The notes under the pieces: generated by a model
The model's input: only the letters and a program-made list of their open reading frames with translations
Database searches by the model: none
What the model was told of the DNA's origin: nothing
Made by a program: the position numbers and the translations under genes
From: Bacteroidales bacterium
GTDB taxonomy: Bacteria; Bacteroidota; Bacteroidia; Bacteroidales; VadinHA17
Reading direction: 5' to 3'
Length of the DNA stretch: 54,484 nt
Assembly: GCA_015712185.1 (NCBI GenBank)
Contig: JADDYF010000058.1
Location: forward strand, 1-54,484
Shown: piece by piece, positions 13,197-46,932 of the stretch
How positions within the stretch are numbered: the first letter of the stretch is position 1
Layout of the letters: each line of letters starts with the position of its first letter

Positions 13197-16100
13197 CTAT
13201 TTTACAGAGAACAGTTTACTGTAATAATCGTTGATAAGTGGTTCGAGGGCAGCAATAAGCGAGTCAGATTTCTGGGACAATGCAAAATTATATATATCGA
13301 TCAGTGCCTGAATATTCATGCTGTTGGACAATTCCATTCCAAATCGTTTATCAGGTCGCAGATTTACTGCATAGTCAAGGTACTCCCTTGAATAGCTAAT
13401 TATCTTATTCAGCAGCTCAGCTCCTTCCTCCTTTTCGCCGGCTCTTATCAGCACCTCGGCAAGGCCAGCCGAGAAAAAATCATTCGGGACCTTCTCCGAC
13501 GGGATTATCCCGAGGCCTCTGTGGGCAGCCTGAACCGCCTTTACAGTATCTCCTGCCTGGAGTAATGCTTTGCCCAGGTTTCCGAAAAGCCTCCTGAAAT
13601 TGCTCAGCATCCGCCGGTTGTTTTCATCAAGGTAGACCCCCTGATCAGCAGCGTTTCCCCATTCAAACTTATTCATCATGTTGTCGTACATGACAACCGG
13701 ATCTATCATGCCATACTCACCCTGTTCCGGTGTATCAGTCCTTACAGGCACGATCCTGTAGGCAAGACCTTCCTGTATGAAATACTTCTCAAGTCCCTTA
13801 TACTGGCTCGAAGGGACTGTAGTTGATATATAAACAGGACGGTTCCATTTATTTGTAGCGAGCATATCCATGATAGCCAGATCGCCTTTAAAGGCGTCCT
13901 CATCGGTATACTCCCAGATTATGGGGGAGAGCAGTCTGTCTTTGAAGTATTCCTTTACGGTGCCGTTCGAAAGAACTGTTGATGTGTCAACATCGATCAG
14001 CAGTTTACTGGTTGGCAGGTAGTTTGCATAGTCGCCTCTCCCGCTCAGGTCGACCATGTATTTCCTGTCATCGAGGCCGACAAACGCCACAGCCTCCTTT
14101 ATATTTACAGGTTTATCAATCTTGCTTATTACCGGGATCTGGATTCTCAGCCCTTCAATATATTTTTCAGGTCCCAGCGAAAAGGGCAGCGGTTCCGAGT
14201 CAAATGCCTTCTGCCTCATCATATCGACGTACCATCCGGCCTGGATATAGCTCAGGTTGGCAACCCTTACATCAGTTCTTACCTGTTCCACATCCTGAAC
14301 ATACCACACCGGAAATGAATCGTTATCACCGTAAGTAAACAATATACTGTTCGGGGCGCATGATTTAAGATAATTGGCCCCTATATCCCTGGCCGTGTAA
14401 CGGCCCGATCTGTCGTGGTCGTCCCAGTTTTCGGCTGCCAGAAAAAGAGGGCAGGCAGCAGCAAGTACAATAAATGTAATAGCTGCAGATATCCTGTGGT
14501 CAAAGAACTTTTGCAGCTGTTCATAGAGGAGCATGAATCCCATCCCTATCCAGATGGCAAACGCATAAAACGATCCGGCATAAGCATAGTCACGTTCCCT
14601 GGGCTGGTTCGGATTCTGATTGAGGTAGAAAATTATTGCCAGGCCGGTCATTATGAATAATGCCATTACCAGCCAGAAGCCATTCCTGTCCCTTTTATAT
14701 TGCCAGAAGATCCCTGCAAGACCTATAAGCAAGGGCAGGAAATAGTATTTATTATTACCCGGATTGTTTTTAAGATCAGCCGGAATATTATCCAGATCGC
14801 CCAGCCTGGCTTCGTCAATGAATTTAATCCCGCTTATCCAGTTGCCATTGAAGCTGTTCCCGTTACCCTGCACATCGTTCTGCCGGCCTGCAAAATTCCA
14901 CATGAAATACCTGAGGTACATAAAGCCTGTCTGATACCTGAAAAAGAAACGCAGGTTCTCTCCAAATGTGGGACAGACCAGAGTCTCCCGACCCGAGCCC
15001 GAACTTACCGTATAGCGTATTCCCTTCACATTTCCCCAGTATTCATATGCCGGCTTATGCTCGGGCTCGGGACTGTACATCCGGGGGAAAATTGTCTCAA
15101 ACCTGTTCTCATAATCATATTCAGGATGGTAATAAGGTTCATATTTCCCGTTTATCTTGTTATAACCTGAAATAACCTGTTTTACATCTATCGGAGGTGC
15201 AGTGTAATACGGTCCATACAGCTTGGGTGAACTCCCGTACTGCTGCATATTGATATAATATGCCAGAGAGAATATATCGGAAGGATTATTCTGATTCATT
15301 GGAGGTTTCGCTGAAGACCTGATCATTATCATGGCATAGGATGAATACCCTATCATAATTACTGTCAGACAGGTCATTATATAATTGAGGATCACTCTCC
15401 TGCTCTTTATGGAATACCTTATTCCAAGAACCAGCAGGGCGATAAGTACTGCCACAAATACCATGAGCCCGGTATTGTAGGGTAATCCGATTACATTGAC
15501 AAAAAACAACTCAAACCATCCCGCGACTTCAGGAACGCCGGGCACTATAATAAACACAATGAATCCCAGCAAAACAACAGCCAGAAACAGTGTATAAATG
15601 ACACCTTTTAGTGTAACCTCATATTTTCTGAAGTAATAAACAAAAACAAGTACAGGGATTACAAGCAGGTTCAGGCGGTGTATTCCCAGCCCCAGACCCA
15701 TGATATAAGCGATCAGTATTATCCATCGGCCAGAGGCCGGGTCATCCGCTTCCTCTTCCCACTTAAGCATGCCCCAGAATACAAGGCCGGTGACAAGTGA
15801 TGATACTGCATAAAGCTCACCTTCAACAGCTGAAAACCAGAAAGTATCTGAAAAGGTATAGGCCATAGAACCGAGAATGCCGCTTCCAATAACAGCAGGG
15901 ATAGTTTTTGAATCCGGCACACTGCTGCCCAGAGATACTCTCCTTACAAGATGTGTTATTGTCCAGAACAGGAACATAATGGCAAATGCGCTGCATAGTG
16001 CCGAAAGGATATTCACCATAAGCGCTACTTTCGATGTGTCACCTCCTGCAAACAAGGTTGCCAGCCTTCCTATCATCAGGAATAAAGGTGCACCCGGAGG

Positions 16101-16262
16101 ATGGCCTACCTGCAGCCTAAAGGCAGAGAGTATAAATTCACCGCAATCCCAGAAGCTAACCGTGGGCTCGACCGTTAAAAGGTAAATTACCGCCGAGAAG
16201 ACAAACATAAACCAGCCTGTAACAGTATTCCACCGGCGGTATGTGCCCCAAACTGGATTCAT
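13197..16262 (-). CDS. DUF2723 / TMEM260-like large membrane protein (putative glycosyltransferase-fold) with a TPR-like C-terminus
   Basis: 1021 aa. The N-terminus TVSFWDCGEFILSAFRLQVGHPPGAPLF is typical of DUF2723. It has more than 10 TM segments and a soluble helical-repeat tail. Confidence 0.75.
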   Translation of the reverse strand: MNPVWGTYRRWNTVTGWFMFVFSAVIYLLTVEPTVSFWDCGEFILSAFRLQVGHPPGAPLFLMIGRLATLFAGGDTSKVALMVNILSALCSAFAIMFLFWTITHLVRRVSLGSSVPDSKTIPAVIGSGILGSMAYTFSDTFWFSAVEGELYAVSSLVTGLVFWGMLKWEEEADDPASGRWIILIAYIMGLGLGIHRLNLLVIPVLVFVYYFRKYEVTLKGVIYTLFLAVVLLGFIVFIIVPGVPEVAGWFELFFVNVIGLPYNTGLMVFVAVLIALLVLGIRYSIKSRRVILNYIMTCLTVIMIGYSSYAMIMIRSSAKPPMNQNNPSDIFSLAYYINMQQYGSSPKLYGPYYTAPPIDVKQVISGYNKINGKYEPYYHPEYDYENRFETIFPRMYSPEPEHKPAYEYWGNVKGIRYTVSSGSGRETLVCPTFGENLRFFFRYQTGFMYLRYFMWNFAGRQNDVQGNGNSFNGNWISGIKFIDEARLGDLDNIPADLKNNPGNNKYYFLPLLIGLAGIFWQYKRDRNGFWLVMALFIMTGLAIIFYLNQNPNQPRERDYAYAGSFYAFAIWIGMGFMLLYEQLQKFFDHRISAAITFIVLAAACPLFLAAENWDDHDRSGRYTARDIGANYLKSCAPNSILFTYGDNDSFPVWYVQDVEQVRTDVRVANLSYIQAGWYVDMMRQKAFDSEPLPFSLGPEKYIEGLRIQIPVISKIDKPVNIKEAVAFVGLDDRKYMVDLSGRGDYANYLPTSKLLIDVDTSTVLSNGTVKEYFKDRLLSPIIWEYTDEDAFKGDLAIMDMLATNKWNRPVYISTTVPSSQYKGLEKYFIQEGLAYRIVPVRTDTPEQGEYGMIDPVVMYDNMMNKFEWGNAADQGVYLDENNRRMLSNFRRLFGNLGKALLQAGDTVKAVQAAHRGLGIIPSEKVPNDFFSAGLAEVLIRAGEKEEGAELLNKIISYSREYLDYAVNLRPDKRFGMELSNSMNIQALIDIYNFALSQKSDSLIAALEPLINDYYSKLFSVK

Positions 16263-18499: not shown

Positions 18500-19393
18500 A
18501 TGCCCAGAACAACTTTCAAAGAATTATTGGATGCAGGTGTGCACTTCGGACACCTTAAAAGAAAATGGAATCCCTCAATGGCACCTTATATCTTCATGGA
18601 GCGGAACGGGATCCATATCATCGATCTTGAAAAAACAATCACTAAACTCGATGAAGCCGCTTCAGCAATGAAGCATATCGCCAAATCGGGTAAAAAAGTA
18701 CTGTTTGTAGCGACAAAGAAACAAGCCAAGGAAATTGTAGCCGAGAAAGTGAAAAAGGTTAACATGCCCTATGTTACCGAACGCTGGCCTGGTGGTATGC
18801 TTACCAATTTTCCGACAATCCGTAAGGCTGTGAAGAAGATGGGATCCATCGATAAAATGGCTACGGACGGTACATTTCAGAACATGTCAAAACGCGAAAA
18901 GCTTCAGGTCACCCGGCAAAGAGCAAAACTCGAGAAGAACCTCGGCAGTATAGTCGATCTGACAAGGCTGCCTTCTGCCCTCTTCGTTGTTGATGTATGC
19001 AAGGAACATATAGCTGTAAGGGAAGCCAAAAGACTGGGAATCCCTGTTTTTGCCATGGTAGATACAAATTCCGATCCAACCGATATCGAATTCCCGATTC
19101 CTGCAAATGACGATGCCTCCAAATCAATATCACTGATAGTTGAAATTCTGTGTCAATCTATTGAGGAGGGTCTCAATGAGAGGAAAATGGAAAAAGATAA
19201 GGAACAGGGACCGAAAGACAGGAAAGTGATAAGAAAAGAGCTTGAAACTAAAGATATTCCGGCAGCTCTTATTGAGGCCATTGTTGAGGATGAAGAGGAA
19301 GAGGAAACCGGCACCGATGATGAGACAGTAGCTGTTGAACCCGACGATGAGGATAGTGCCAGGACAGGTGTTGAGACTGAGGAAGAATTATAG
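18500..19393 (+). CDS. rpsB: 30S ribosomal protein S2 (with an acidic C-terminal extension)
   Basis: LL.AGVHFGH..R.WNP.M..YIF..RNGIHIIDL and FVATKKQA motifs. The tail is rich in Glu/Asp. Confidence 0.95.
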   Translation: MPRTTFKELLDAGVHFGHLKRKWNPSMAPYIFMERNGIHIIDLEKTITKLDEAASAMKHIAKSGKKVLFVATKKQAKEIVAEKVKKVNMPYVTERWPGGMLTNFPTIRKAVKKMGSIDKMATDGTFQNMSKREKLQVTRQRAKLEKNLGSIVDLTRLPSALFVVDVCKEHIAVREAKRLGIPVFAMVDTNSDPTDIEFPIPANDDASKSISLIVEILCQSIEEGLNERKMEKDKEQGPKDRKVIRKELETKDIPAALIEAIVEDEEEEETGTDDETVAVEPDDEDSARTGVETEEEL

Positions 19394-19419
19394 GTAACAT
19401 AATTTTAAACAGAAGTAAA

Positions 19420-20250
19420 ATGGCGACAATAAGTGCTGCAGATGTAGCAAAGCTGAGAAGAGTGACCTTAGCAGGAATGATGGATTGTAAAACTGCACTC
19501 GAGGAATCAGGAGGTAATTTTGAGAAGGCGATTGAAATAATCAGGAAGAAGGGACAGGCTGTTGCCAGTAAACGTGCCGACAGGGAAGCATCTGAAGGAG
19601 TTGTATTGTCAAAAGTATCAGATAATGGCAGGCTGGGTATAATGATTGTTCTTAACAGCGAAACAGATTTTGTAGCAAAGAATTCAGATTTTATTGGTCT
19701 TGCAAATAAAATCCTCGATACTGCACTTGCAAAGAATCCTCCCGATCTTGAAGCTCTTAAATCGCTTCCTCTGGATAGCGTGACCATTGGCGAAAAAGTC
19801 ATAGAATATATAGGTATAATAGGTGAGAAACTCCAGCTGTCATATTTCGATAAGGTTGAAGCTCCCCATGTACATGCATATATACACCCGGGCAACAGGC
19901 TTGCCACTCTGGTAGGATTTTCGAAACCAGGTCTGGATATACAGGTCTATAAGGATGTTGCCATGCAGGTTGCGGCAATGAATCCTGTAGCTATTGACAA
20001 GGATGATGTACCGCCGGCTATCATTGCCCAGGAAATAGAGATCGGAAAGGAACAGGCAAAACGCGATGGCAAACCTGAAGATATGCTTGAAAAGATCGCA
20101 CAGGGTAAGCTCGCCAAATTCTTTAAGGAGAGCACACTGCTTAACCAGGAGTTCGTTAAGGACAACAAGCTTACAATCGGACAATATCTGAAGTCGGCAG
20201 ATAAGGAACTTAAGGTAACAGGTTTTAAACGTTATACACTAAACCTGTAA
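19420..20250 (+). CDS. tsf: Elongation factor Ts
   Basis: VAKLR..T.AGMMDCK.AL.E..GN.EKAIE..RKKG is the EF-Ts N-terminal UBA-like signature. 276 aa. Confidence 0.95.
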   Translation: MATISAADVAKLRRVTLAGMMDCKTALEESGGNFEKAIEIIRKKGQAVASKRADREASEGVVLSKVSDNGRLGIMIVLNSETDFVAKNSDFIGLANKILDTALAKNPPDLEALKSLPLDSVTIGEKVIEYIGIIGEKLQLSYFDKVEAPHVHAYIHPGNRLATLVGFSKPGLDIQVYKDVAMQVAAMNPVAIDKDDVPPAIIAQEIEIGKEQAKRDGKPEDMLEKIAQGKLAKFFKESTLLNQEFVKDNKLTIGQYLKSADKELKVTGFKRYTLNL

Positions 20251-20269
20251 TATATTCCAGTTCATTAAT

Positions 20270-20316
20270 AAAGGAGGCTGTCTTCAAAAGTGTTTAAAGA
20301 CAGCCTCCTTTATTTG
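20270..20316 (+). terminator. Rho-independent terminator after tsf
   Basis: A perfect 14-bp stem, AAGGAGGCTGTCTT (20271-20284) with AAGACAGCCTCCTT (20297-20310), a 12-nt loop, followed by TATTTG. Confidence 0.7.
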
Positions 20317-20377
20317 ATATTCCTCATTCTTAAATAATTTCTTAATTATTCTATCTTTACATTACAGAGATTATTTT

Positions 20378-21085
20378 ATGAAATACTCGAGGATATTATT
20401 AAAAATAAGCGGCGAATCGCTGGCAGGAAAGGCAAAACAAGGGATAAGCGATGAAGTTATCGGGGATTATGCTGCCCAGATAGCGGCTGTCACAAAAACA
20501 GGCTGCCAGGTAGCGGTAGTAATCGGAGGAGGAAATATATTCCGTGGACTTAGTGGTACAAAATCGGGTTTTGACAGGGTAAAGGGCGATCAGATGGGTA
20601 TGCTGGCAACCGTGATAAACAGCCTGGCCCTCGAATGTGCCATCAGGAATAACGGCGGCAAAGCTGCTGTCTTTACATCTATAAGGATGGAACCTGTCGG
20701 AGAACTTTACAAACGCGACAGAGTTGCTGAAGAGCTGAAAAACGGAACTGTATGCATTCTTGCAGGAGGTACCGGCAATCCGTTCTTCACAACGGATACT
20801 GCCGCTGCACTCAGGGCCGTTGAGATAGGAGCCGACGTTCTGCTTAAAGGCACAAGGGTTGATGGTGTATATACTTCCGATCCTGAGAAATATCCGAAGG
20901 CAAAGAGATTTGAAGAGATCACATTCGAAGAAGTTATCAGGCGCAACCTGAAGGTTATGGATGCAACTGCATTCACAATGTGCAGGGATAACAGAATGCC
21001 AATTGTTGTATTTAATATGAATAAACCCGGAAACCTTTTGAGGCTGATCAAAGGGACAAAAACAGGAACTCTCATTTGTGATTAG
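20378..21085 (+). CDS. pyrH: UMP kinase
   Basis: RILLK.SGE.L, VVIGGGNIFRG and VDGVYT.DP motifs. 235 aa. Confidence 0.95.
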   Translation: MKYSRILLKISGESLAGKAKQGISDEVIGDYAAQIAAVTKTGCQVAVVIGGGNIFRGLSGTKSGFDRVKGDQMGMLATVINSLALECAIRNNGGKAAVFTSIRMEPVGELYKRDRVAEELKNGTVCILAGGTGNPFFTTDTAAALRAVEIGADVLLKGTRVDGVYTSDPEKYPKAKRFEEITFEEVIRRNLKVMDATAFTMCRDNRMPIVVFNMNKPGNLLRLIKGTKTGTLICD

Positions 21086-21113
21086 AAGAAGGATAAATTT
21101 CAGGCTATTTTAT

Positions 21114-21121
21114 TATTTTTG
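21114..21121 (+). promoter_or_regulatory. Candidate -7 box (TAnnTTTG) upstream of frr
   Basis: TATTTTTG lies 67 nt upstream of the frr ATG. Motif match only. Confidence 0.3.
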
Positions 21122-21187
21122 TTATTTTATTGGTTGTAAGCAAAATGTATTAATAATAAATATTATTAACCGGTAAACCTGATCTAT

Positions 21188-21751
21188 ATGAATGAAGAAG
21201 TTGATCTGATTATAGAAGAAACAAGGGACAGGATGGGAAAAGCCCTTGAGCATCTCGAACATGAGCTTGCCAGACTAAGGGCCGGCAGAGCAACTCCTGT
21301 ACTTCTCGACGGAATAACAGTTGACTATTACGGAGTCAACTCCCCGCTGACGCAGGTTTCAAATATAAACACTCCCGATCCCAAAACAATATTGATACAG
21401 CCCTGGGAAAAGACCATGCTGGGCACCATAGAAAAGGCTATAATGGCTGCCAACATAGGGCTTACACCGATAAACAACGGCGAGGTAATCCGCATAAATA
21501 TACCTCCCCTGACAGAGGAACGTCGACATCAGCTTGTTAAACAGGTACGCAACGAGGGGGAAACGGCAAAGATCAGCGTGCGGAATGCACGTAAATGGGC
21601 TAATGATGAGCTTAAGCAGCTTCTTAAGGATGGACTTCCCGAGGACATGGAAAAAGATGCCGTGGAAATGGTCCAGGAGATGACTCACGACTTCAACGGG
21701 AAGATCGAAAAGGTCATGGCAATGAAAGAAAAGGATGTTATGACGGTTTAA
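21188..21751 (+). CDS. frr: Ribosome recycling factor
   Basis: 187 aa with L..LR.GRA.P..LD.I.V.YYG, I.P.LTEERR..LVK and RN.R motifs. Confidence 0.95.
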   Translation: MNEEVDLIIEETRDRMGKALEHLEHELARLRAGRATPVLLDGITVDYYGVNSPLTQVSNINTPDPKTILIQPWEKTMLGTIEKAIMAANIGLTPINNGEVIRINIPPLTEERRHQLVKQVRNEGETAKISVRNARKWANDELKQLLKDGLPEDMEKDAVEMVQEMTHDFNGKIEKVMAMKEKDVMTV

Positions 21752-24149
21752 GCCTCAGCGTATATTTTGCTGCTGCTTTCACGGCACCATCAGAAAAGGC
21801 ATCTTTATAAAACTCTCCTTCAATATAGGTTTTTGTCTGTGACAGATAAAACTCGCTTGCAGGTATACCCGATGCTCCGGTTGGTATAACAGTATATGAT
21901 TCGTCCCAGTCTGCGGTATTGAATATATGCCTCTCAGAAGCTCCGTGATCTATAATGAATCCCGGATCGAATGAATATGGGCTTACGGTATGATCACTCC
22001 CCCCGACAGGATACTCATCCGAATTAAAGCCGAATACTTTATCAAGAACCGGAGAGGCTGATCCAAGTGGATGCCGGATGGTTATCCTGTGAATATTACC
22101 CCATTTCCAGTCTTCAGGATCTTCCCCGAACTGAGCAGTTACCGATGCAATACAATCCCTGAAACTCTTAAGTATTATATCATCAAGAGTCTCTTTTTCC
22201 TCAGTATCGATATTATCGACCCATCCGTCAGGTCCGGTTTTCAGGATCCTGAAGATATAATTATCAGTAATTACATTGTAATTACGTCCTACGGAAATAT
22301 ACCTGTCATAAAGTTCCTTAAGCTCATCGGAAAGAAGATTCCTGCCGAAGCTTATTCTGAAAAATTCGAAGAGTGACGGAGCTGCCAGGTCTGTATCCAT
22401 ATCGTAGTCCCATGCTGAAAGCATTTTCAGAGCTTCTTTTTCCGGCCGGGTAAAGGTCTCTTTTATGTCATTAAGTCTCAGTATAAATGGTGTCATCAGG
22501 GCAGCATAATCTGAATGCTGATCATTTACCATACGCCTGAAGTCATCAAGCGTGAAGATATCTTTTTCCTCAAGCATCTGCCTTATCCTGTTAATCCTGT
22601 AGGGCAGGGCAAAGTTGCAGCTTATATAGTAAGGATATCTGTCGGATACAGTTTTATTGTTTGCAGAAGAAACATATCCTGTTTCAGGGTTGAAGCTGTA
22701 TGGGAGCTGATCAAATGGAACAAAACCTTTCCAGTCAGACTCTTCAGTATCACCATTTCTGATGAATGCTCCATGACCTTTCCTTACTGGTATACCGCCT
22801 CCCGTATTAAGTCCTATATTACCGTCGACGTCGGCATAAATAATATTCTGGCTGCACGACCTGAATGTAGTGATGGCTGAACGGAAGTCATCCCATCCCG
22901 AAGCCCGGTTCAGGAGGTAACATGTACGGAGCTCATCACTCGTATCGTAACCCGACCATCTCATACTAAGTGCAGCATCCTCCACGTTTCTGTATCCCGA
23001 TATGACAGGCCCGCGGTGAGTATATCTTATGATTATCGAATCCTTTCCCCCTCCCTTTGTTTTTATTATTTCCTTTTTTACAAGCAGATTCTTCCATTCG
23101 CCGTTGAAGTAATATTGATTTTCATTCTGAGGATTGATTTTTTCGGCAAACAGGTCAATATCGTCAACCATCAGATTGGTCATCCCCCAGGCTATTCTCT
23201 CGTTATGCCCGCATATTATGAATGGCTGACCGGGCACTGCGACTCCGGTAACATTAAGTTTTCCGGGAATCACCTGATGCATCTGGAACCATATTCCGGG
23301 AGAACCAAAGTCGAGATGCATATCATTTGACAGGACAGGCCTGCCTGTTTCAGTTTTTTTACCGGAAACTGCCCAGCTGTTGCTGCCGGAAAATGGCACA
23401 ACGCCCAGTGCCTTTAATTCATCCATCGATGAAATAAATTCCCGGGCTTCGCTTAAAAGTGTATCGTTCAGGCTATAGTCAGGAAATACCACTGAAGTAT
23501 CTGCATTCCAGTCAGGAATTAGCCGGGCAGCTTTTTCAGCTCCCATCTTCTGTGCAAGCCTGTAATAGAAGATCTCCTGTGTGAGATTATCCTTTGCCAG
23601 GCTCCACCCCATATACCCGATGATATTCACGATATCTTCCAGCTTCCAGGGATCAGGCTTATATGACAGTATTCTGAATTCAGGCGGGAGCTTCCTGCCG
23701 GCACCGGCTATATAGGCATTTACACCATCAGCAAACGCCTGCAGACATGATATGATCGAAGGATCAGCTCCACTCAGTACCATCTTGGATTTTGATGTCA
23801 TCGCAAGGCACCTGAGAAATTTATCGGTTTCTACCATCGATTCTCCCATAACCTCTGACAGCCGGCCTGTTGTCACCCGGCGTATGAGATCCATGAACCA
23901 CAGCCTTTCCTGCGACATTACATAACCAACTGCATAATAAAGGTCGTGCTCATTGCCTGCATAAAAATGAGGCATGCCTCTTTCATCCCTGTAAACAGTT
24001 ACTTCGTCAGTAAGTCCTGATAAGACAAGCTCTCCACCGTATTGAGGTAATGCACTTCTCTGTATCACCGAAATAAGTATCAGTCCTGATGCAAGTGCAA
24101 TAATAATCAGAGCCAGAAGCGAAAGCAGAATGTTTTTGAGTATTTTCAT
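21738..24149 (-). CDS. Penicillin/AHL acylase family protein (Ntn hydrolase, peptidase S45), paralog 1, N-terminal membrane anchor
   Basis: 803 aa. Motifs are VYRDERGMPHFYA, AQ/SQERLWFMDL, FSGSNSWAVSG (beta-subunit N-terminal Ser nucleophile context) and NDMHL. Its 3' end overlaps the frr 3' end by 14 nt (convergent). Confidence 0.85.
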   Translation of the reverse strand: MKILKNILLSLLALIIIALASGLILISVIQRSALPQYGGELVLSGLTDEVTVYRDERGMPHFYAGNEHDLYYAVGYVMSQERLWFMDLIRRVTTGRLSEVMGESMVETDKFLRCLAMTSKSKMVLSGADPSIISCLQAFADGVNAYIAGAGRKLPPEFRILSYKPDPWKLEDIVNIIGYMGWSLAKDNLTQEIFYYRLAQKMGAEKAARLIPDWNADTSVVFPDYSLNDTLLSEAREFISSMDELKALGVVPFSGSNSWAVSGKKTETGRPVLSNDMHLDFGSPGIWFQMHQVIPGKLNVTGVAVPGQPFIICGHNERIAWGMTNLMVDDIDLFAEKINPQNENQYYFNGEWKNLLVKKEIIKTKGGGKDSIIIRYTHRGPVISGYRNVEDAALSMRWSGYDTSDELRTCYLLNRASGWDDFRSAITTFRSCSQNIIYADVDGNIGLNTGGGIPVRKGHGAFIRNGDTEESDWKGFVPFDQLPYSFNPETGYVSSANNKTVSDRYPYYISCNFALPYRINRIRQMLEEKDIFTLDDFRRMVNDQHSDYAALMTPFILRLNDIKETFTRPEKEALKMLSAWDYDMDTDLAAPSLFEFFRISFGRNLLSDELKELYDRYISVGRNYNVITDNYIFRILKTGPDGWVDNIDTEEKETLDDIILKSFRDCIASVTAQFGEDPEDWKWGNIHRITIRHPLGSASPVLDKVFGFNSDEYPVGGSDHTVSPYSFDPGFIIDHGASERHIFNTADWDESYTVIPTGASGIPASEFYLSQTKTYIEGEFYKDAFSDGAVKAAAKYTLRLKPS

Positions 24150-24180
24150 CTTACCAGAATTTGATCATGGCTATTTACAT

Positions 24181-26607
24181 CTATTCCGGATTCAGTATCA
24201 TGGTATACTTTGCCGACGACCTCACAGCATCTTCCGTAAAATGATCCCCGTAAAACTCTTTGCTGAGGTAGGTCTTCACCTGTGAGAGGTAGAACTCGCT
24301 TGCCGGCATTCCTGAAGCCCCGCCGGGGATTACTGTCAGTGATTCATTCCAGTCAGCAGTATTGAAAATATGCCTTTCTGAAGCACCGTGTGCTACTTTA
24401 TAATCGGGACTGAAAGAGAAATACGGACAGACAGTATGATCGCTTCCCCCTATACTGTATTTATGCGAATTCAGCTTATACAGGAAATTGAGTATCCTTA
24501 CTGAACCCAGGGGATGCTGCAGTGTGAGGGTATGGATCTTCCCCCATTCCCAGCTTTTCTGATTCTTCCCAAGTTGTTTTACAAGCGATTGAACAGCTTC
24601 CCTGAAACTCTGCATGATGATGTCATCAAGTATTTCTTTTTCGGGTGTAGTGATATCATCCACAAGATCGTCCGACTCAGTTCTCAGGATACGGTATATA
24701 TAATACTCAGCCGTCATATAAAACAACTGATCATAAAGGTCTCCCAGCTCATCAGCAAGCAGATTCCTTCTGAAGCTGTTCCTGAAAGATTCAAATATCG
24801 TGGGTGCGATCCTGTCTGCTTTCATTTCATAATCCCAGGATTTCAGTGCTGCAAGTGCACCAGTTTCTGCTGGAGTAAGTTCTTCAAGCATGTTATCCAA
24901 CCGAAGAATATATGGTGTCATCAGTTCCGCCAGGGCGGAATGCTGATCTGTTATCATCCTCCTGAAATCGTCCATACTGAATTTCTCCTTTTCATCAAGC
25001 ATCTGCCTTATCCTGTTTATCCTGTACGGAACAACAAAGTCACAGCTGATAAAATAGGGATAATCATCACCGACAGTCTTATTATTGGCTGATGAGACAT
25101 ATCCGATTTCAGGATTAAAGCTGAATGGCAGCAGTTCAAAGGGGACATACCCCTTCCAGTCATATTCATCGGTTTCCCCGTTTCTGATAATTATACCGCC
25201 GCTTTTCCTTATCGGAATTCCTCCACCGATACTCAGCCCAATATTCCCTTCAACATCAGCATAAACAAAATTCTGGCTTACTGATCCGAATGTTTTCAGG
25301 GCAGACCTGAAATCATCCCAGTTTTCCGCCCTGTTCAAGAGGAAGACTGATCGTACTTCGTCACTATAATCATAACCCGACCATCTCATGCTCAGGACAG
25401 CATCGCTGACATCCCTGAAATCTGAAACAACCGCTCCACGGTGGGTGAACCGGATTGTAACCGTATCCGGTAAACCTTTTTTGATGCTGATAATTTCAGT
25501 CTTGTTGATCAGATTCTTCCATTCGCCGTTGAACAGGTACTGGTTATGGTTTTCGGGGTTGAGCTTTTCAACATACAGATCGACGTCATCCACCATCAGG
25601 TTTGTCATTCCCCATGCGATATTCTGATTATGACCGGCAATTATGAAAGGCTGACCAGGTATCAGTACGCCTGTAACGTTAAGCTTCCCCGGTATCACCT
25701 GGTGCATTTGTAACCATATGCCAGGATTGCTGAATGTCAAGTGCATATCGTTTGAAAGTACAGGCTTCCCGGTCTCTGTCCTTTTTCCTGATACAGCCCA
25801 GTTATTGCTCCCTGAGAATGCGGTTACCCCAAGGTTTGCTATCCTGTCAGTTGCTGAAATAAAAGATTCCAGCTGTGATATAATTGCCTGGTCAAGTTTA
25901 AAATCGGGGTAGACAAAGTCTGCAGGTATTTTCCAGTCAGGGAGCAGTACTGAAGCTTTCTCAAATCCGAGCTTTTGTACCAGTTTATAGCTGAAGATCT
26001 CAGAGGTCAGATTTCGTGACGTAAGGTTCCAGCCCATGAATCCTACAATATTTGCGACATCTTCAAGTGTCCATGGTTCAGGGCTGTAAGATAGGATCCG
26101 GAATTCCACCGGCAGCTTGCGCTTTACTGAATTAATGAAAGCATTCACTCCATCCGTATAGGCCTGCAGACATCTGATAATTTCGGGATCCTCTTTCTCT
26201 ATAACATTTTTCGACTTTTCCCTTATCTGAAGACACCTGGCAAACCTGTCAGCCAGTAAGAAGGTTTTGCCATTGATCTCAGATGAAGTGTTAGATCTGT
26301 CGCCGAAAATCTCACTCAGGCGGCCCGTGGAACTTCGGCGGATAAGGTCCATCTGCCAGAGCCGCTCCTGGGCTGAGACAAATCCTACTGCAAAATAAAG
26401 ATCATGTTCATTCCCGGCATAAATATGAGGCATCCCCCGTTCGTCCCTGTAGACTGTGACCTTGTCTGAAAGATCCTGAATAACTACGGTGCCTTCATAC
26501 TGGGGACATCTTCTCCTTTGATTATCTGAAGGTGATGCATAGCCTGTGCCAAGGACTGAAAGTCCTAAAATAGTGATGGAGAGAAAAGCTTTTTCCCGGA
26601 TTTTCAT
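24181..26607 (-). CDS. Penicillin/AHL acylase family protein (Ntn hydrolase, peptidase S45), paralog 2, cleavable signal peptide
   Basis: 808 aa and collinear with paralog 1. I judged roughly 60-75% identity in the stretches I aligned by eye. The FSGSNNWAVSG nucleophile context is conserved. It lies 31 nt upstream of paralog 1. Confidence 0.85.
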   Translation of the reverse strand: MKIREKAFLSITILGLSVLGTGYASPSDNQRRRCPQYEGTVVIQDLSDKVTVYRDERGMPHIYAGNEHDLYFAVGFVSAQERLWQMDLIRRSSTGRLSEIFGDRSNTSSEINGKTFLLADRFARCLQIREKSKNVIEKEDPEIIRCLQAYTDGVNAFINSVKRKLPVEFRILSYSPEPWTLEDVANIVGFMGWNLTSRNLTSEIFSYKLVQKLGFEKASVLLPDWKIPADFVYPDFKLDQAIISQLESFISATDRIANLGVTAFSGSNNWAVSGKRTETGKPVLSNDMHLTFSNPGIWLQMHQVIPGKLNVTGVLIPGQPFIIAGHNQNIAWGMTNLMVDDVDLYVEKLNPENHNQYLFNGEWKNLINKTEIISIKKGLPDTVTIRFTHRGAVVSDFRDVSDAVLSMRWSGYDYSDEVRSVFLLNRAENWDDFRSALKTFGSVSQNFVYADVEGNIGLSIGGGIPIRKSGGIIIRNGETDEYDWKGYVPFELLPFSFNPEIGYVSSANNKTVGDDYPYFISCDFVVPYRINRIRQMLDEKEKFSMDDFRRMITDQHSALAELMTPYILRLDNMLEELTPAETGALAALKSWDYEMKADRIAPTIFESFRNSFRRNLLADELGDLYDQLFYMTAEYYIYRILRTESDDLVDDITTPEKEILDDIIMQSFREAVQSLVKQLGKNQKSWEWGKIHTLTLQHPLGSVRILNFLYKLNSHKYSIGGSDHTVCPYFSFSPDYKVAHGASERHIFNTADWNESLTVIPGGASGMPASEFYLSQVKTYLSKEFYGDHFTEDAVRSSAKYTMILNPE

Positions 26608-26648
26608 AAAAGGAAATAATATTACCCCAATTTACTAAATTCCCGCGA

Positions 26649-27632
26649 TCAGCGCTTCACTCTCAGGGAAATTCCTGAGGTACAGTTTCTGCAGATTTCA
26701 GTCATATCGCGACCTGAAAGCAGGTTTTTTCTGAAAATCTTATATTTAGGTCCTTCCCATATATCGTAAAATGACTCTTCGTTGAGATCGCCCATTACAT
26801 GCTCAGCATCTTTATCAAAACAGCAGGGGAGAACTTTCCCATCCCATGTAATTACCGGATTGAACCAGAGGCGCGGGCAGCGATTCGGGAAGGAGTTCTT
26901 AAGTACATATTCTCCGTTCTTTTTTTCATATCTGCAGAATTCCGGTTTTGAAGGCATCCAGTATCCGGCTGCCTCCTTAGTGATGATCTGCATTGATTTC
27001 AGCCTGAGGGAAGCTTTCATTTTATGTGCAAAAGCTTTTGCCAGTGGTATCTGATGCTCATTGAGCCGGTTTACCAGGAACTGGATCTGAAGGTTCATTT
27101 TTGAAGAAAATCTCTCTCTTGCTTCTGCAATATTCCTTATTCCTTCTGTCACCTTCTGAAGATCACCATTTACCCTGTATGACGAGTAAGTGGTCTGGTC
27201 CATGCCATCCAGTGAAACGATGAGTGTCCATAATCCCGACTTCACAAGTCTTTCAGCGTTCTCCGGAGACAAAAAATGACCATTTGTTGAAACCACGGAC
27301 CTGATGCCCCTGCTCTTCTGAATGAATACGAATAATTTCGGGTGGAGCATCGGCTCGCCCTGGAAATAGAGGTTGATATTGTACAGGAACGGTCGAAGTT
27401 CTGTAATGATCCTGCCGAAGAGCTCTGTATCCATATAGCCTCTGCACCGTTTCATCAAACCCTGGCTTGTTCCTGAAAAGCACTCAGGGCAGTTCAGATT
27501 GCAATTATTTGTCAGTTCAGCGGAAATGGCCGGTGGCATCCTGGAGATAAATGCATTTCCCGTTGCAATGCTCCTGAAATACGAGAAGCCCGCAGAGAAG
27601 GCATTCGAGGTTCTGACAAACCGGCCGGTCAT
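26649..27632 (-). CDS. Radical SAM enzyme with a C-terminal SPASM/twitch-like Cys cluster
   Basis: CNLNCPEC (CX3CX2C) at aa ~44-51, then GEPMLHP, STNGH and VSLDG core motifs. The C-terminal Cys pattern is CPRLW...LPCCFDKD...CRNC. It lies 41 nt upstream of acylase paralog 2. Confidence 0.85.
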   Translation of the reverse strand: MTGRFVRTSNAFSAGFSYFRSIATGNAFISRMPPAISAELTNNCNLNCPECFSGTSQGLMKRCRGYMDTELFGRIITELRPFLYNINLYFQGEPMLHPKLFVFIQKSRGIRSVVSTNGHFLSPENAERLVKSGLWTLIVSLDGMDQTTYSSYRVNGDLQKVTEGIRNIAEARERFSSKMNLQIQFLVNRLNEHQIPLAKAFAHKMKASLRLKSMQIITKEAAGYWMPSKPEFCRYEKKNGEYVLKNSFPNRCPRLWFNPVITWDGKVLPCCFDKDAEHVMGDLNEESFYDIWEGPKYKIFRKNLLSGRDMTEICRNCTSGISLRVKR

Positions 27633-27745
27633 CTGTTATGCTGAAACTTTGTTGTAAGATAAGAAATTATTTTTTCTGCCGGGCAATAGGGTATTTGGCT
27701 TTTTGATGGTCTTAGTGTTGAAAACGAATAAGTACTTTTTATCAT
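27629..27745 (-). CDS. Speculative 38-aa small ORF overlapping the radical SAM start codon (ATGA)
   Basis: Hand translation of the minus strand gives MIKSTYSFSTLRPSKSQIPYCPAEKIISYLTTKFQHNR-stop. Its TGA (27631-27629) overlaps the rSAM ATG (27632-27630). There is no homology support, and the AT-rich region could be open by chance. Confidence 0.15.
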   Translation of the reverse strand: MIKSTYSFSTLRPSKSQIPYCPAEKIISYLTTKFQHNR

Positions 27746-27768
27746 TTATAACCAAATTACATTATGCC

Positions 27769-29073
27769 ATGAAAACTATCAGAATTTTTTCATTAGTTGC
27801 AGCAGTCACCTTGCTGGCCTTTTCAGCTGAGACGCTGTCTGCAGCACCCACCTCAGCCAGGAAAAAAGCTGACCAGCAGACATACCTTACCATCAGGGGA
27901 AAGGTTGTTGATGCTGAAACAGGGGCACCTCTTGTATTTGCAACAGTGGCCGTGATGGAGACCAACGTTGCTATTATCACGAACATCGATGGAGAGTTCA
28001 CCCTTAAGATTGGTGATACAGAGGCTTCAAAAAACCTTGAGATCACCTACCTGGGCTATAAGAACAAGATAATCCCCATCAGTTCAATGCGAAACGACGG
28101 GTATAAGAACAGTATTTCGCTCGAACCTGCACCGATACCCATCAAAGAGATTGTTGTGCGACCGATAAATCCCGAGGAAATTGTCGGAAAAGCAATCGAC
28201 CGTATCGGCAAAAACTATGAAAATGTGCCAAACCTGATGACGGCTTTCTACAGGGAGACGATCCGTAAGAACCGAACATACGTCTCAATAGGAGAAGCTG
28301 TTGTGGAGATCTTCAAGGCACCCTACAGCAACGATCTGCGTTATGACGGGGCAAGGATCTACAAAGGGAGAAAAAGCTCCGATGTTGAAAGAATGGATAC
28401 CATCCTTTTCAAACTCCAGGGTGGGACCACCAGTGTCCTTCTCCTCGACATAGCAAAAAATACAGAGCTGATCCTTACCAGGGATGCCATGAAATACTAT
28501 AATTATTCCCTGATGAGTGTTATTGAAATTGACGGCAAACCACATTACGGAATTGATTTCGTACAGAAGCCTTCTGCCGAAATGCCGTTGTTCATGGGAA
28601 CACTATATATAGAAATGGATTCATACGCCATATCTGAGGCTGAATTCGGTTTCAACCTCGAGGACAAGGCGGCTGCCGCATCGATCTTCATACGCAAGAA
28701 ACCGCTCGGAATGGAAGTGGTTCCTGAGGTGGCAACATACAGGACCAAATACCGTGAACAGGATGGGAAATGGCATTTCTCATATTCAAGAGCTGAAGTA
28801 AAGTTCAAGGTCAACTGGAAGAAGAAACTTTTCAATACCTACTATACAACCATGTCGGAAATTGCGGTGACCGATCGTACTGACCAGGAAGTTATTAAAT
28901 TTGCAGGTAAGGATAAGATAAAGTACACGGATGTATTTTCCGAAAAGGTTGGTTCATTTGCTGATCCTGAATTCTGGGGAGATTATAATGTGATAGAACC
29001 TGACCAGAGTATTGAATCAGCAATCCGCAGACTCAGCAGAAAACTTAAGTTCAGCGACAGGGAACCGGAATAA
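27769..29073 (+). CDS. Secreted CarboxypepD_reg-domain protein with an uncharacterised ~300-aa C-terminal domain (paralog A)
   Basis: The ATG at 27769 gives the signal peptide MKTIRIFSLVAAVTLLAFSAETLSA. IRGKVVDAETGAPLVFATVAV...TNIDGEFTLKI is the CarboxypepD_reg signature. The C-terminal part is collinear with ORF 30638-32188. Confidence 0.7.
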   Translation: MKTIRIFSLVAAVTLLAFSAETLSAAPTSARKKADQQTYLTIRGKVVDAETGAPLVFATVAVMETNVAIITNIDGEFTLKIGDTEASKNLEITYLGYKNKIIPISSMRNDGYKNSISLEPAPIPIKEIVVRPINPEEIVGKAIDRIGKNYENVPNLMTAFYRETIRKNRTYVSIGEAVVEIFKAPYSNDLRYDGARIYKGRKSSDVERMDTILFKLQGGTTSVLLLDIAKNTELILTRDAMKYYNYSLMSVIEIDGKPHYGIDFVQKPSAEMPLFMGTLYIEMDSYAISEAEFGFNLEDKAAAASIFIRKKPLGMEVVPEVATYRTKYREQDGKWHFSYSRAEVKFKVNWKKKLFNTYYTTMSEIAVTDRTDQEVIKFAGKDKIKYTDVFSEKVGSFADPEFWGDYNVIEPDQSIESAIRRLSRKLKFSDREPE

Positions 29074-29087
29074 AGCATTGGCAGTGA

Positions 29088-29624
29088 ATGAACAGGGATA
29101 CTGAAACCATAGAGAGGATCCGGAAAGGTGATGCACAGGAATTTGAATCCCTTTTCAGATCCTCCTACGTTTCCCTGGTCAGGTATGCCAGAACGATGGT
29201 CAGAGACCATGATACAGCCGAAGAAATTGTCCAGGATCTGTTTTTCAGACTCTGGAAAGACAAAGAAAAATTAAACATAGAAAGTTCTTTAAATGGCTAC
29301 CTTTTCAGAGCTGTCCATAACAGATGCCTTCACTGGATAGATCATAACAGGATTGTCGGAAATTATGCCCGGGAGATGGCTGATACACATACCGAAAGTC
29401 CCGATAATCCATCCGATATGATCGTTCTTAAGGAGCTCCAGCATAAAATAGTGAAGATCCTGGAACGGCTCCCTGAGAGATGCGGAAGGATATTTTGTAT
29501 GAACCGCTTCGAAGGACTAAAATATGCAGAAATAGCTGAAAAGCTGTCTGTCTCGATCAAAACGGTTGAGGCAAACATGGGAAGAGCGTTAAAAGAATTC
29601 AGAAAAGCTTTGACAGAACAATGA
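29088..29624 (+). CDS. ECF (sigma-70 family group IV) RNA polymerase sigma factor
   Basis: 178 aa. Region 2 (ARTMVRDHDTAEEIVQDLFFRLW) and region 4 HTH (LKYAEIAEKLSVSIKTVEANMGRALK) are present. It starts 14 nt after the upstream stop. Confidence 0.9.
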   Translation: MNRDTETIERIRKGDAQEFESLFRSSYVSLVRYARTMVRDHDTAEEIVQDLFFRLWKDKEKLNIESSLNGYLFRAVHNRCLHWIDHNRIVGNYAREMADTHTESPDNPSDMIVLKELQHKIVKILERLPERCGRIFCMNRFEGLKYAEIAEKLSVSIKTVEANMGRALKEFRKALTEQ

Positions 29625-40045: not shown

Positions 40046-40058
40046 TTAGCTATAGTTT

Positions 40059-40068
40059 AATTAACACA
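40059..40068. repeat. 10-bp direct repeat, left copy, flanking the GH54/VKOR module
   Basis: AATTAACACA is identical to 44710-44719. It lies in the AT-rich spacer between the GH43 start and the VKOR stop. Confidence 0.5.
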
Positions 40069-40168
40069 GGAAAAACATTCTCAATCAGTTCTGTTAATTT
40101 TATAACAATACATCTTTCCAGGAGCTGCACTTATTTGAATAATATTTTTCCCTATGCCCCGGTCCGGA

Positions 40169-44685: not shown

Positions 44686-44709
44686 ATTTCTATTACAATT
44701 TGTTCACTA

Positions 44710-44719
44710 AATTAACACA
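44710..44719. repeat. 10-bp direct repeat, right copy, flanking the GH54/VKOR module
   Basis: AATTAACACA is identical to 40059-40068. It lies between the GH54-like start (44685) and the esterase stop (44725). Confidence 0.5.
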
Positions 44720-44724
44720 TGTTT

Positions 44725-46689
<1,965 letters not shown>

Positions 46690-46932
46690 TTACCGGGATG
46701 GGTTGCGCCGCCGGCAAAAATCATATCAACCGGTACAATATTTAGAATGGCCATGATCTTTTCAGCCAGTTCAGTTCTATGATTTCCTTAGATCATGTAA
46801 ATATTATAAATGGTTAAATTTAATTATTTTAGTTTTAAAAACAGACGCATAAGGAATATCAGGTATTAATCATTTATAATTCTTTAAAGGATTTCACAGC
46901 AGCATCACAGATAATTAATTTATAATGGTAAA

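What the first reader, a model, noticed from the sequence alone, without database searches (positions are those of the whole stretch)
21738..27632. Radical SAM/SPASM enzyme heading a same-strand run with two diverged Ntn-hydrolase acylase paralogs (window centre)
Seen directly:
- Three minus-strand genes are separated by only 41 and 31 nt.
- The first has CX3CX2C (CNLNCPEC) plus a C-terminal auxiliary Cys cluster (CPRLW..PCCFDKD..CRNC), i.e. SPASM/twitch-like.
- The next two are ~800-aa penicillin/AHL-acylase (S45) family proteins. Both keep the GSN(S/N)WAV nucleophile context.
- They are clearly old paralogs. One has an uncleaved-looking membrane anchor. The other has a signal peptide and an extra ~10-aa insert after GRLSEIFG.

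Established knowledge: SPASM enzymes mostly modify peptides or proteins, and S45 acylases hydrolyse N-acyl amide bonds (AHLs, lipopeptide tails, beta-lactam side chains).

I do not know a described pathway that joins these two enzyme classes. Possibilities are maturation or tailoring of an N-acylated or ribosomal peptide product, or a signal-degrading module with a radical-SAM-made cofactor or substrate. It may also be mere adjacency.
Basis: partly seen in the sequence, partly recalled or inferred. Interest (0 to 1): 0.65.

Follow-up and report, generated by a model that had tools for sequence, protein, structure and literature searches.

The report
Orphan radical-SAM gene beside inserted acylases
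The three genes are real and tightly packed, but comparison with about 90 related genome regions shows the two acylase genes are a lineage-specific, often-lost insertion next to a radical-SAM gene that most Bacteroidota carry with no acylase beside it, so this looks like ordinary adjacency and not a new two-enzyme pathway.

Summary
Three minus-strand genes lie 41 and 31 nt apart: a 327-aa radical SAM protein (26649-27632) and two ~800-aa S45 penicillin-amidase-family acylases (24181-26607 and 21738-24149, 62% identical to each other).

The joint-pathway reading is not supported.
- **Radical SAM family:** it is a Bacteroidota-wide family with no named function. Its C-terminal domain has five invariant Cys, enough for one auxiliary cluster (twitch type, not full SPASM). 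Its closest solved relative by sequence is BtrN, which acts on a small molecule. It has no RiPP-recognition element, and no precursor ORF or riboswitch lies nearby.
- **Distant orthologous loci (other orders):** none of 57 has an S45 acylase within 8 kb.
- **Close Bacteroidales relatives:** a block of about 15 kb (dxs ... ECF sigma/FecR ... rSAM, then frr-pyrH-tsf-rpsB converging) is conserved. The slot between rSAM and frr holds 0 acylases in 12 loci, at least 1 in 9 and 2 in 1 (plus this window).
- **Ancestral state:** rSAM facing frr directly also occurs in other orders, so the acylase was inserted there, then duplicated, then lost at least twice while the rSAM stayed.

Co-transcription is plausible, because the gaps are short and no terminator was found. 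Functional coupling is unlikely. Interest is low.

The parts
26649..27632 (-). Radical SAM protein, 327 aa, with a twitch-type (partial SPASM) C-terminal domain. It belongs to a Bacteroidota-wide family that has no named function.
   Evidence: Pfam PF04055 + PF13186. No NCBIfam equivalog reaches its cutoff; the best is 117 bits against a cutoff of 380. CX3CX2C and five C-terminal Cys are invariant in 79-81 of the 81 sequences (80 orthologs plus the window). The closest solved structure by sequence is BtrN, E 1.9e-17 with the single sequence and 1.1e-22 with a profile. More than 7,600 relatives have E<=1e-10.
24181..26607 (-). S45 (penicillin amidase family) Ntn-hydrolase acylase, 808 aa, 'A-type' paralog. 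It has a signal-peptide-like N-terminus, predicted nucleophile Ser267 and an 11-aa insert after GRLSEIFG.
   Evidence: PF01804 at 707.6 bits over the full length. 62% identity to the downstream copy. It groups with the rSAM-proximal copies of L083 and L016 in the acylase tree.
21738..24149 (-). S45 Ntn-hydrolase acylase, 803 aa, 'B-type' paralog. This is the type found in all single-copy loci. It has a long hydrophobic N-terminus, predicted nucleophile Ser256 and His278 at beta-23.
   Evidence: PF01804 at 706.5 bits. The best solved relative is D-succinylase 7eby, E 3.9e-79, and Ser256 aligns with beta-chain residue 1 of PGA, GCA and PvdQ. Orthologs of 66-80% identity are listed; the three that were looked up sit in the same slot.
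26608..26648 (-). 41-nt junction between the rSAM and acylase A.
   Evidence: No terminator-like hairpin on the minus strand. Orthologous junctions are 16-56 nt. A TAAATTG-like motif recurs about 25 nt before the acylase ATG in 6 of 14 junctions, and no exact TAnnTTTG is present.
24150..24180 (-). 31-nt junction between acylase A and acylase B.
   Evidence: No terminator-like hairpin and no promoter motif. The same 30-nt spacing occurs in L083.
27633..27768 (.). Divergent intergenic region between the rSAM and the CarbopepD_reg_2 / ECF sigma / FecR operon. It probably holds the promoters of both. Conserved DNA boxes lie at about 27708-27723, 27687-27693 and 27654-27670.
   Evidence: An alignment of 18-23 orthologous upstream regions shows the conserved boxes TTTCA-N5-TA[AT]GACC, TACCCTA and ATATTTTCTTATCTTAC. 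There is no consensus RNA structure, no Rfam hit and no conserved small ORF.
21188..21751 (+). frr (ribosome recycling factor), the last gene of rpsB-tsf-pyrH-frr. It converges on acylase B and overlaps its 3' end by 14 nt. It marks the far edge of the insertion slot.
   Evidence: TIGR00496 at 201.8 bits, above its cutoff. rSAM directly facing frr is seen in 12 close loci and in L028, L030, L033 and L065 from other orders.

Best explanation
The three genes are neighbours by descent and do not form a dedicated pathway.

(1) The first gene encodes a cytoplasmic radical SAM enzyme of a Bacteroidota-wide family with no named function. It binds the SAM cluster through C44/C48/C51. A BtrN-like twitch domain (C252, C270 or C271, C314, C317) can hold one auxiliary [4Fe-4S] cluster. 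By analogy with BtrN, it most likely abstracts a hydrogen atom from a small hydroxylated metabolite and passes an electron to the auxiliary cluster. That mechanism is inferred. Whatever its substrate, it works without an acylase, because most orthologs have none nearby.

(2) An S45 acylase gene was inserted into the ancestral convergent rSAM/frr junction in one Bacteroidales lineage. It duplicated in tandem into A- and B-types and was later lost at least twice.

(3) Both acylases are exported Ntn-hydrolases. They should self-cleave at Gly-Ser (S267 and S256) and hydrolyse an N-acyl amide bond of an unknown extracytoplasmic substrate. This is inferred from the family.

(4) Because the gaps are only 16-56 nt and contain no terminator, the acylases are probably transcribed by read-through from the rSAM promoter. 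This is inferred and would be co-expression without shared chemistry.
For: - **Phylum-wide family without acylases:** 80 genomic loci encode orthologs. None of the 57 distant loci (39-47% identity; Cytophagales, Flavobacteriales, Saprospiraceae, Chitinophagales, other Bacteroidales) has an S45 gene within 8 kb, by tblastn or by an acylase HMM.
- **No conserved partner gene:** the distant loci show only lineage-specific neighbours.
- **Variable slot in close relatives:** in the close clade (57-65% identity) the whole block dxs-OmpA-CarbD2-FecR-ECF-CarbD1 <-> rSAM ... frr-pyrH-tsf-rpsB is conserved. The slot between rSAM and frr holds 0 acylases in 12 loci, at least 1 in 9 and 2 in 1.
- **Ancestral junction:** rSAM directly facing frr also occurs in Lentimicrobiaceae, Salibacteraceae and Flavobacteriales loci (L028, L030, L033, L065).
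- **Losses with the rSAM retained:** on the rSAM tree, basal branches carry one acylase, a derived clade of 9 scored loci carries none, and L005 (none) is nested beside L016 (two).
- **Duplication history:** the acylase tree separates A-type copies from B-type copies and all single copies.
- **Twitch domain, BtrN-like:**
- **No signs of peptide maturation or a regulatory RNA:** no RRE (one N-terminal helix only), no conserved precursor ORF, no riboswitch or RNA structure.
- **No terminator in the junctions:**
Against: - Where the acylase is present it is always immediately downstream of the rSAM, on the same strand and with a short gap. That arrangement has survived rSAM divergence to about 57% identity, which would normally count as operon evidence. 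Here it is weakened because unrelated housekeeping genes in the same block are equally syntenic.
- I could not check whether the genomes with an empty slot carry the acylase elsewhere.
- I could not sample the genomic context of distant S45 relatives.
- The rSAM tree is a single-gene NJ tree without support values.
- No transcription data are available.
- The rSAM's substrate is unknown, so a link cannot be excluded on chemical grounds.
Confidence: 0.75

Rival explanations
1. The genes form a true functional operon in this Bacteroidales lineage. The rSAM modifies or makes an N-acylated metabolite, or a cofactor or substrate, which the exported acylases then deacylate.
For: The genes share a strand, with 16-56 nt gaps and no terminator, and the arrangement is kept in about half of the close clade. 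Every acylase ortholog that was looked up sits directly after the rSAM.
Against: The rSAM persists without an adjacent acylase in 12 of 22 close loci and 57 of 57 distant loci. The whole 15-kb block, including unrelated housekeeping genes, is equally conserved, so synteny here is not specific. The rSAM has no export signal while the acylases do, so the two would act in different compartments (inferred). The literature search found no paper that links the two classes.
Confidence: 0.12
2. This is a RiPP or lipopeptide cluster. The rSAM would be a peptide maturase and the acylases would tailor or deacylate the product.
For: The Pfam SPASM domain matches. Foldseek hits include the peptide maturases SuiB, SkfB and EpeE, with TM 0.5-0.6.
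Against: The C-terminal domain has only five Cys and lacks CX5CX3C, so it is twitch and not SPASM. By sequence, BtrN is far ahead of any peptide maturase. There is no RRE, only a single helix at residues 2-24. The junctions of 41 and 31 nt leave no room for a precursor gene, and the small ORFs upstream are not conserved in 22 orthologous loci. No transporter, protease or NRPS lies nearby. The family is phylum-wide and has no conserved neighbours.
Confidence: 0.03
3. The acylases are a quorum-quenching (AHL acylase) or beta-lactam acylase module acquired for signal or antibiotic degradation, unrelated to the rSAM. This reading concerns acylase function only and is compatible with the best explanation.
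For: They belong to the S45 family and have the Ser nucleophile and His beta-23, as in PvdQ-type and cephalosporin acylases. The only NCBIfam hit is PvdQ. The gene is gained, duplicated and lost like an accessory gene.
Against: The PvdQ model scores 78-93 bits against a cutoff of 950. The best solved relative is a D-succinylase, not an AHL acylase, and PvdQ aligns over only about 190 residues at E about 1e-12. Substrate specificity in S45 cannot be read from the sequence.
Confidence: 0.15

Closest known systems
BtrN (2-deoxy-scyllo-inosamine dehydrogenase, butirosin pathway; PDB 4M7T/4M7S), the prototype twitch-domain radical SAM enzyme
   Same: It is the best solved relative by sequence (E 1.9e-17 single sequence, 1.1e-22 profile). 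It has the same CX3CX2C core and the same C...GX4C...CX2C auxiliary-cluster spacing. The protein ends shortly after the CX2C, so a second auxiliary cluster is not possible.
   Different: Identity is only about 20%. This protein is about 75 aa longer, with a conserved N-terminal helix. It has an invariant extra Cys (C271) next to the ligand Cys, where BtrN has Phe. It is not in an aminoglycoside cluster. Its substrate is unknown.
SPASM peptide and protein maturases (anSME, SuiB, CteB, PqqE)
   Same: They share the radical SAM core and a Pfam SPASM match, and the fold similarity is TM 0.5-0.6.
   Different: The seven-Cys two-cluster motif is not met, since only five Cys are present. There is no RRE and no substrate peptide gene. 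All NCBIfam maturase models score far below their cutoffs.
PvdQ / AHL acylases (S45 Ntn-hydrolases of Pseudomonas)
   Same: They belong to the same Pfam family, have an N-terminal Ser nucleophile after self-cleavage and a His at beta-23, and are exported.
   Different: NF051460 scores 78-93 bits against a cutoff of 950. Only about 190 residues align with PvdQ. No siderophore or NRPS genes are nearby.
D-succinylase (PDB 7EBY/7EA4), penicillin G acylase and glutaryl-7-ACA acylase
   Same: These are the best solved relatives over nearly the full length (E 3.9e-79, 2.7e-55 and 5.5e-47). The catalytic Ser aligns.
   Different: The relationship is distant, with scores of 164-270 bits over about 800 aa. 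Substrate specificity cannot be transferred. The proteins here come from a Bacteroidales MAG and carry hydrophobic N-termini.

Membership tests
Radical SAM superfamily | CX3CX2C motif that binds the SAM [4Fe-4S] cluster, plus the partial TIM-barrel core | tested here: met
   C44/C48/C51 are invariant in all 81 sequences (80 orthologs plus the window). PF04055 scores 51 bits against a cutoff of 29.5. The AF2 model shows alternating beta/alpha elements from residue 35 to 213.
SPASM domain (two auxiliary clusters) | Seven-Cys motif CX9-15GX4C - gap - CX2CX5CX3C - gap - C | tested here: not met
   Only C252, C270, C271, C314 and C317 are present. The protein ends 10 residues after C317 and has no CX5CX3C. 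The Pfam SPASM model still matches because it also covers twitch domains.
Twitch-domain radical SAM enzymes (BtrN-like) | Truncated SPASM with four Cys ligating one auxiliary cluster (C...GX4C...CX2C) | tested here: met
   The spacing is C252-X12-G265-X4-C270 ... C314-X2-C317, and all are invariant. BtrN is the top solved relative and aligns across this domain. NF033640 (twitch rSAM) matches residues 251-318. Cluster content itself cannot be tested in silico.
BtrN orthologs (2-deoxy-scyllo-inosamine dehydrogenase) | Close sequence identity and an aminoglycoside (butirosin/neomycin) gene-cluster context | tested here: not met
   Identity is about 20%. The neighbours are ribosomal and translation genes and an ECF sigma system.
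RiPP radical SAM maturases | A RiPP recognition element or a cognate precursor peptide gene in the cluster | tested here: not met
   The N-terminus is a single helix at residues 2-24. Small ORFs upstream are not conserved. The junctions of 41 and 31 nt leave no room for a precursor gene.
MEROPS S45 / Pfam Penicil_amidase Ntn-hydrolases | Full-length family match, with the Ser (after Gly) that becomes the beta-chain N-terminal nucleophile | tested here: met
   PF01804 scores about 707 bits over profile positions 1-674 of 675 for both proteins. S256 aligns with beta residue 1 of PGA, GCA and PvdQ. GSN(N/S)WAV is conserved in all 14 orthologs and paralogs. Autoproteolysis was not tested.
PvdQ-type bifunctional / AHL acylase (NF051460) | Score above the curated equivalog cutoff | tested here: not met
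   The scores are 92.7 and 78.2 bits against a cutoff of 950.
Conserved rSAM + S45 gene pair (a putative joint system) | The linkage is kept across lineages independently of the surrounding synteny | tested here: not met
   The acylase is absent from 57 of 57 distant loci and 12 of 22 close loci. It is present only inside one vertically inherited block.

The most novel reading that the evidence does not exclude
In this Bacteroidales subclade, the twitch radical SAM enzyme and the downstream exported S45 acylase(s) would be co-transcribed and act on one N-acylated envelope or signalling metabolite. The rSAM would modify it in the cytoplasm and the acylases would deacylate it outside. The divergent ECF sigma/FecR/STN-protein system might control the whole unit. 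No such rSAM-acylase pathway has been described.
Probability: 0.08. Interest if true: 0.55.

Novelty: new member of a known kind. Interest (0 to 1): 0.2.

Why it matters
As a candidate new pathway it matters little, because the comparative evidence points to inherited adjacency. Two modest points remain.

- **The rSAM family:** it is found across Bacteroidota and well conserved, it is BtrN-like with a twitch domain, and it has an invariant extra Cys. It has no assigned function and no conserved partner gene, so it is a reasonable target for functional genomics.
- **The acylase slot:** it is a clean example of an accessory gene inserted at a convergent junction, then duplicated and repeatedly lost. 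It is a caution against reading tight same-strand spacing as proof of shared function.

Tried and rejected
- **NCBIfam classification of the rSAM:** 46 weak hits, none near its cutoff.
- **Fold search of the AF2 model (pLDDT 77.7):** it returned generic SPASM/twitch enzymes (SuiB, anSME, BlsE, DesII, EpeE, BtrN) at TM 0.5-0.6, which does not discriminate substrates.
- **EpeE/YydG-like epimerase idea:** I considered it because of the CC doublet. EpeE does not appear in sequence or profile searches at E<=1, so I did not pursue it.
- **Conserved neighbours across 57 distant loci:** only lineage-specific ones were found (Lnb-like, SurA-type PPIase, RecX, inositol monophosphatase, LPG_synthase_TM, AI-2E transporter).
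- **38-aa ORF overlapping the rSAM start by ATGA (27629-27745):** it looked like a precursor peptide but is not conserved in any of 22 orthologous loci.
- **Riboswitch or structured leader:** no Rfam hit and zero predicted consensus pairs.
- **Promoter and terminator scans:** the counts are at shuffle expectation, no exact Bacteroidetes TAnnTTTG lies in the junctions, and the results are not decisive.
- **Literature:** nothing links SPASM or twitch rSAM enzymes with penicillin amidases or describes this family.
- **Not possible here:** a second genome-collection scan, which would have checked whether the genomes with an empty slot carry the acylase elsewhere and would have sampled distant S45 contexts.


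Full report
**What is there**

The window comes from a Bacteroidales MAG. The three proteins match MBG0858385, MBG0858384 and MBG0858383 exactly, annotated 'SPASM domain-containing protein' and 'penicillin acylase family protein'. ORF listing and translation confirm three minus-strand genes:
- 26649-27632, 327 aa
- 24181-26607, 808 aa
- 21738-24149, 803 aa

They are separated by 41 and 31 nt.

Pfam assigns Radical_SAM plus SPASM to the first gene. It assigns Penicil_amidase, at about 707 bits over the full length, to the other two. The two acylases are 62% identical. Both keep GSN(N/S)WAV. The Ser (S267 and S256) aligns with residue 1 of the beta chains of solved acylases, and a His sits at beta-23. 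The 11-aa insert after GRLSEIFG is real. It is shared with the rSAM-proximal copy of L083 but not with that of L016.

**Surroundings**

Downstream, rpsB-tsf-pyrH-frr on the plus strand (18500-21751) converges on the last acylase, and frr overlaps its 3' end by 14 nt. Upstream and divergent lie a CarbopepD_reg_2 protein, an ECF sigma factor, a FecR-type anti-sigma factor and an STN + CarbopepD_reg_2 protein. These are followed by an OmpA-family gene and dxs. No NRPS, transporter, protease or precursor gene is present.

**The radical SAM protein**

No NCBIfam equivalog comes near its cutoff. The best is the tungsten-cofactor maturase model at 117 bits against a cutoff of 380.

The family is large and well conserved. 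More than 7,600 clusters score E<=1e-10, and the best 120 are about 324 aa and 59-73% identical apart from the exact match.

Across 80 genomic orthologs, CX3CX2C and five C-terminal Cys (C252, C270, C271, C314, C317) are invariant. The CX5CX3C half of the SPASM motif is absent, and the protein ends 10 residues after C317. This is a twitch-type domain that can hold one auxiliary cluster.

The closest solved protein by sequence is BtrN, the prototype twitch enzyme (E 1.9e-17 with the single sequence, 1.1e-22 with a 30-sequence profile). It is well ahead of SkfB, BlsE, GDGT-MAS and PqqE.

An AlphaFold2 model (pLDDT 77.7, pTM 0.81) shows the rSAM core preceded by a single helix at residues 2-24, so there is no RiPP recognition element. 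Foldseek gives only generic SPASM/twitch matches at TM 0.5-0.6.

Several other searches were negative:
- No riboswitch was found.
- The leader has no consensus RNA structure.
- The 38-aa ORF that overlaps the rSAM start is not conserved in orthologous loci.

**Is the rSAM-acylase linkage conserved?**

This was the decisive test. A scan of one genome per GTDB species returned 80 loci with orthologs. I searched them with all window proteins by tblastn and with an acylase HMM.

In the 57 distant loci (39-47% identity; Cytophagales, Flavobacteriales, Saprospiraceae, Chitinophagales, Lentimicrobiaceae and others), no S45 gene lies within 8 kb. No other gene is a phylum-wide neighbour either. The neighbours are lineage-specific.

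In the 23 close Bacteroidales loci (57-65% identity), the entire block is conserved: dxs-OmpA-CarbD2-FecR-ECF-CarbD1 <-> rSAM ... frr-pyrH-tsf-rpsB. The number of acylase genes between rSAM and frr varies. Counting rSAM-anchored samples with readable downstream sequence, including three metagenomic look-ups:

| Acylase genes in the slot | Loci |
|---|---|
| 0 | 12 |
| at least 1 | 9 |
| 2 | 1, plus this window |

Acylase-anchored look-ups always land in the same slot. That shows the acylase orthologs are inherited in place. It does not show that they are recruited to the rSAM independently.

The rSAM directly facing frr also occurs in other orders (L028, L030, L033, L065), so that junction is ancestral and the acylase was inserted into it.

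On an NJ tree of the rSAM, basal branches of the close clade carry one acylase. A derived clade of 9 scored loci carries none. L005 (none) nests beside L016 (two). This indicates at least two losses with the rSAM retained (single-gene tree without support values, so suggestive only).

The acylase tree splits the rSAM-proximal 'A-type' copies (window, L083, L016) from the 'B-type' copies, which include all single copies. The tandem duplication is therefore older than these species but younger than the insertion.

**Transcription**

There is no terminator-like hairpin on the minus strand in either junction, and sigma-70-type promoter matches are at shuffle expectation. No exact Bacteroidetes -7 motif (TAnnTTTG) occurs in 14 orthologous junctions. 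A TAAATTG-like motif about 25 nt before the acylase ATG recurs in six of them and could be a weak internal promoter. Orthologous gaps are 16-56 nt. Co-transcription by read-through is plausible but unproven, and it would not by itself imply shared function.

**Interpretation**

The best-supported account has four parts.
1. A cytoplasmic, BtrN-like twitch radical SAM enzyme of unknown but acylase-independent function is widely conserved in Bacteroidota.
2. An accessory exported S45 acylase was inserted at a convergent intergenic junction in one Bacteroidales lineage, then duplicated, then repeatedly lost.
3. The tight spacing is a by-product of that insertion.
4. The persistence of the arrangement reflects generally strong synteny of the whole 15-kb block, which includes unrelated housekeeping genes.

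I give this 0.75. A real functional operon restricted to this lineage cannot be excluded (about 0.1). The RiPP reading is essentially refuted. The substrate of the acylases is unknown. They are far from PvdQ (78-93 bits against a cutoff of 950), and their nearest solved relative is a D-succinylase.

**Comparison with the known, and novelty**

The components are new, uncharacterised members of known superfamilies: twitch radical SAM enzymes and S45 Ntn-hydrolases. No paper in the searchable library links the two classes or describes this rSAM family. There is no evidence for a new kind of system, so interest is low (0.2). The residual interest lies in the rSAM family itself, with its invariant CC doublet, which has no assigned function.

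Noticed in passing
window 27654-27723 (divergent intergenic region 27633-27768): Three DNA boxes are conserved across 18-23 orthologous loci whose proteins are only about 60% identical: TTTCA-N5-TA[AT]GACC, then about 17 nt, TACCCTA, then about 14 nt, ATATTTTCTTATCTTAC. Read on the plus strand, TAGGGTA-N15-GGTCTTA resembles an ECF-type -35/-10 pair pointing at the CarbopepD_reg_2 / ECF sigma / FecR operon, which would suggest autoregulation. The third box may be the rSAM promoter. No RNA structure was found.
   Followed up: partly
window 27769-32188 (+): This four-gene unit is conserved with the rSAM in all close loci whether or not acylases are present: a CarbopepD_reg_2 protein with a weak, below-cutoff DUF5686 match (about 435 aa from the ATG at 27769), an ECF sigma, a FecR anti-sigma, and a 516-aa STN + CarbopepD_reg_2 protein that has no TonB-receptor plug or barrel match. 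It looks like a cell-surface signalling system with an unusual short transducer.
   Followed up: partly
L026:5496-7922, L045:5077-7593, L068:1209-3656: In three Flavobacteriales loci, a full-length CarbopepD_reg_2 protein of about 810-840 aa lies immediately upstream of the rSAM ortholog and divergent from it. It clusters with the window's CarbopepD_reg_2 proteins (which have weak DUF5686 matches); these three were not themselves scanned against Pfam. This is the same arrangement as the truncated 435-aa gene in the window. It may be chance, because this family is abundant in Bacteroidota.
   Followed up: no
window 26820-26825 (codons for C270-C271 of the rSAM): The CC doublet is invariant in 80 of the 81 sequences (80 orthologs plus the window). 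BtrN has Cys-Phe at this position. The extra Cys next to an auxiliary-cluster ligand could be a fifth ligand or a hydrogen-atom donor, as in some rSAM epimerases, but EpeE shows no detectable sequence similarity.
   Followed up: partly
window 21738-21751: The convergent genes frr (+) and acylase B (-) overlap by 14 nt at their 3' ends, so no room is left for a terminator between them.
   Followed up: no
L006, L007, L008, L012 (between pyrH and tsf); L082:10158-11612: The pyrH-tsf junction of the otherwise conserved rpsB-tsf-pyrH-frr cluster carries an insertion of about 1.8-2 kb in several relatives. In L082 the inserted gene is an MFS sugar transporter. This is a second variable insertion slot in the block.
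   Followed up: no
L035:8001-8958 versus L017: Two contigs of the same MAG (MFD04716.bin.2.270) carry the same block. In L035 the rSAM match is split by a 4-nt offset at about 8690-8695. This is either a frameshift or a long-read sequencing error.
   Followed up: no
window 13197-16262 (-) and 38492-48906: A 1021-aa TMEM260-like (protein O-mannosyltransferase-like) gene lies at 13197-16262. A glycan-degradation cluster (GH43, arabinofuranosidase B, esterases, SASA) has raised GC (0.50-0.52 at 40-44 kb, against about 0.44 elsewhere).
   Followed up: no
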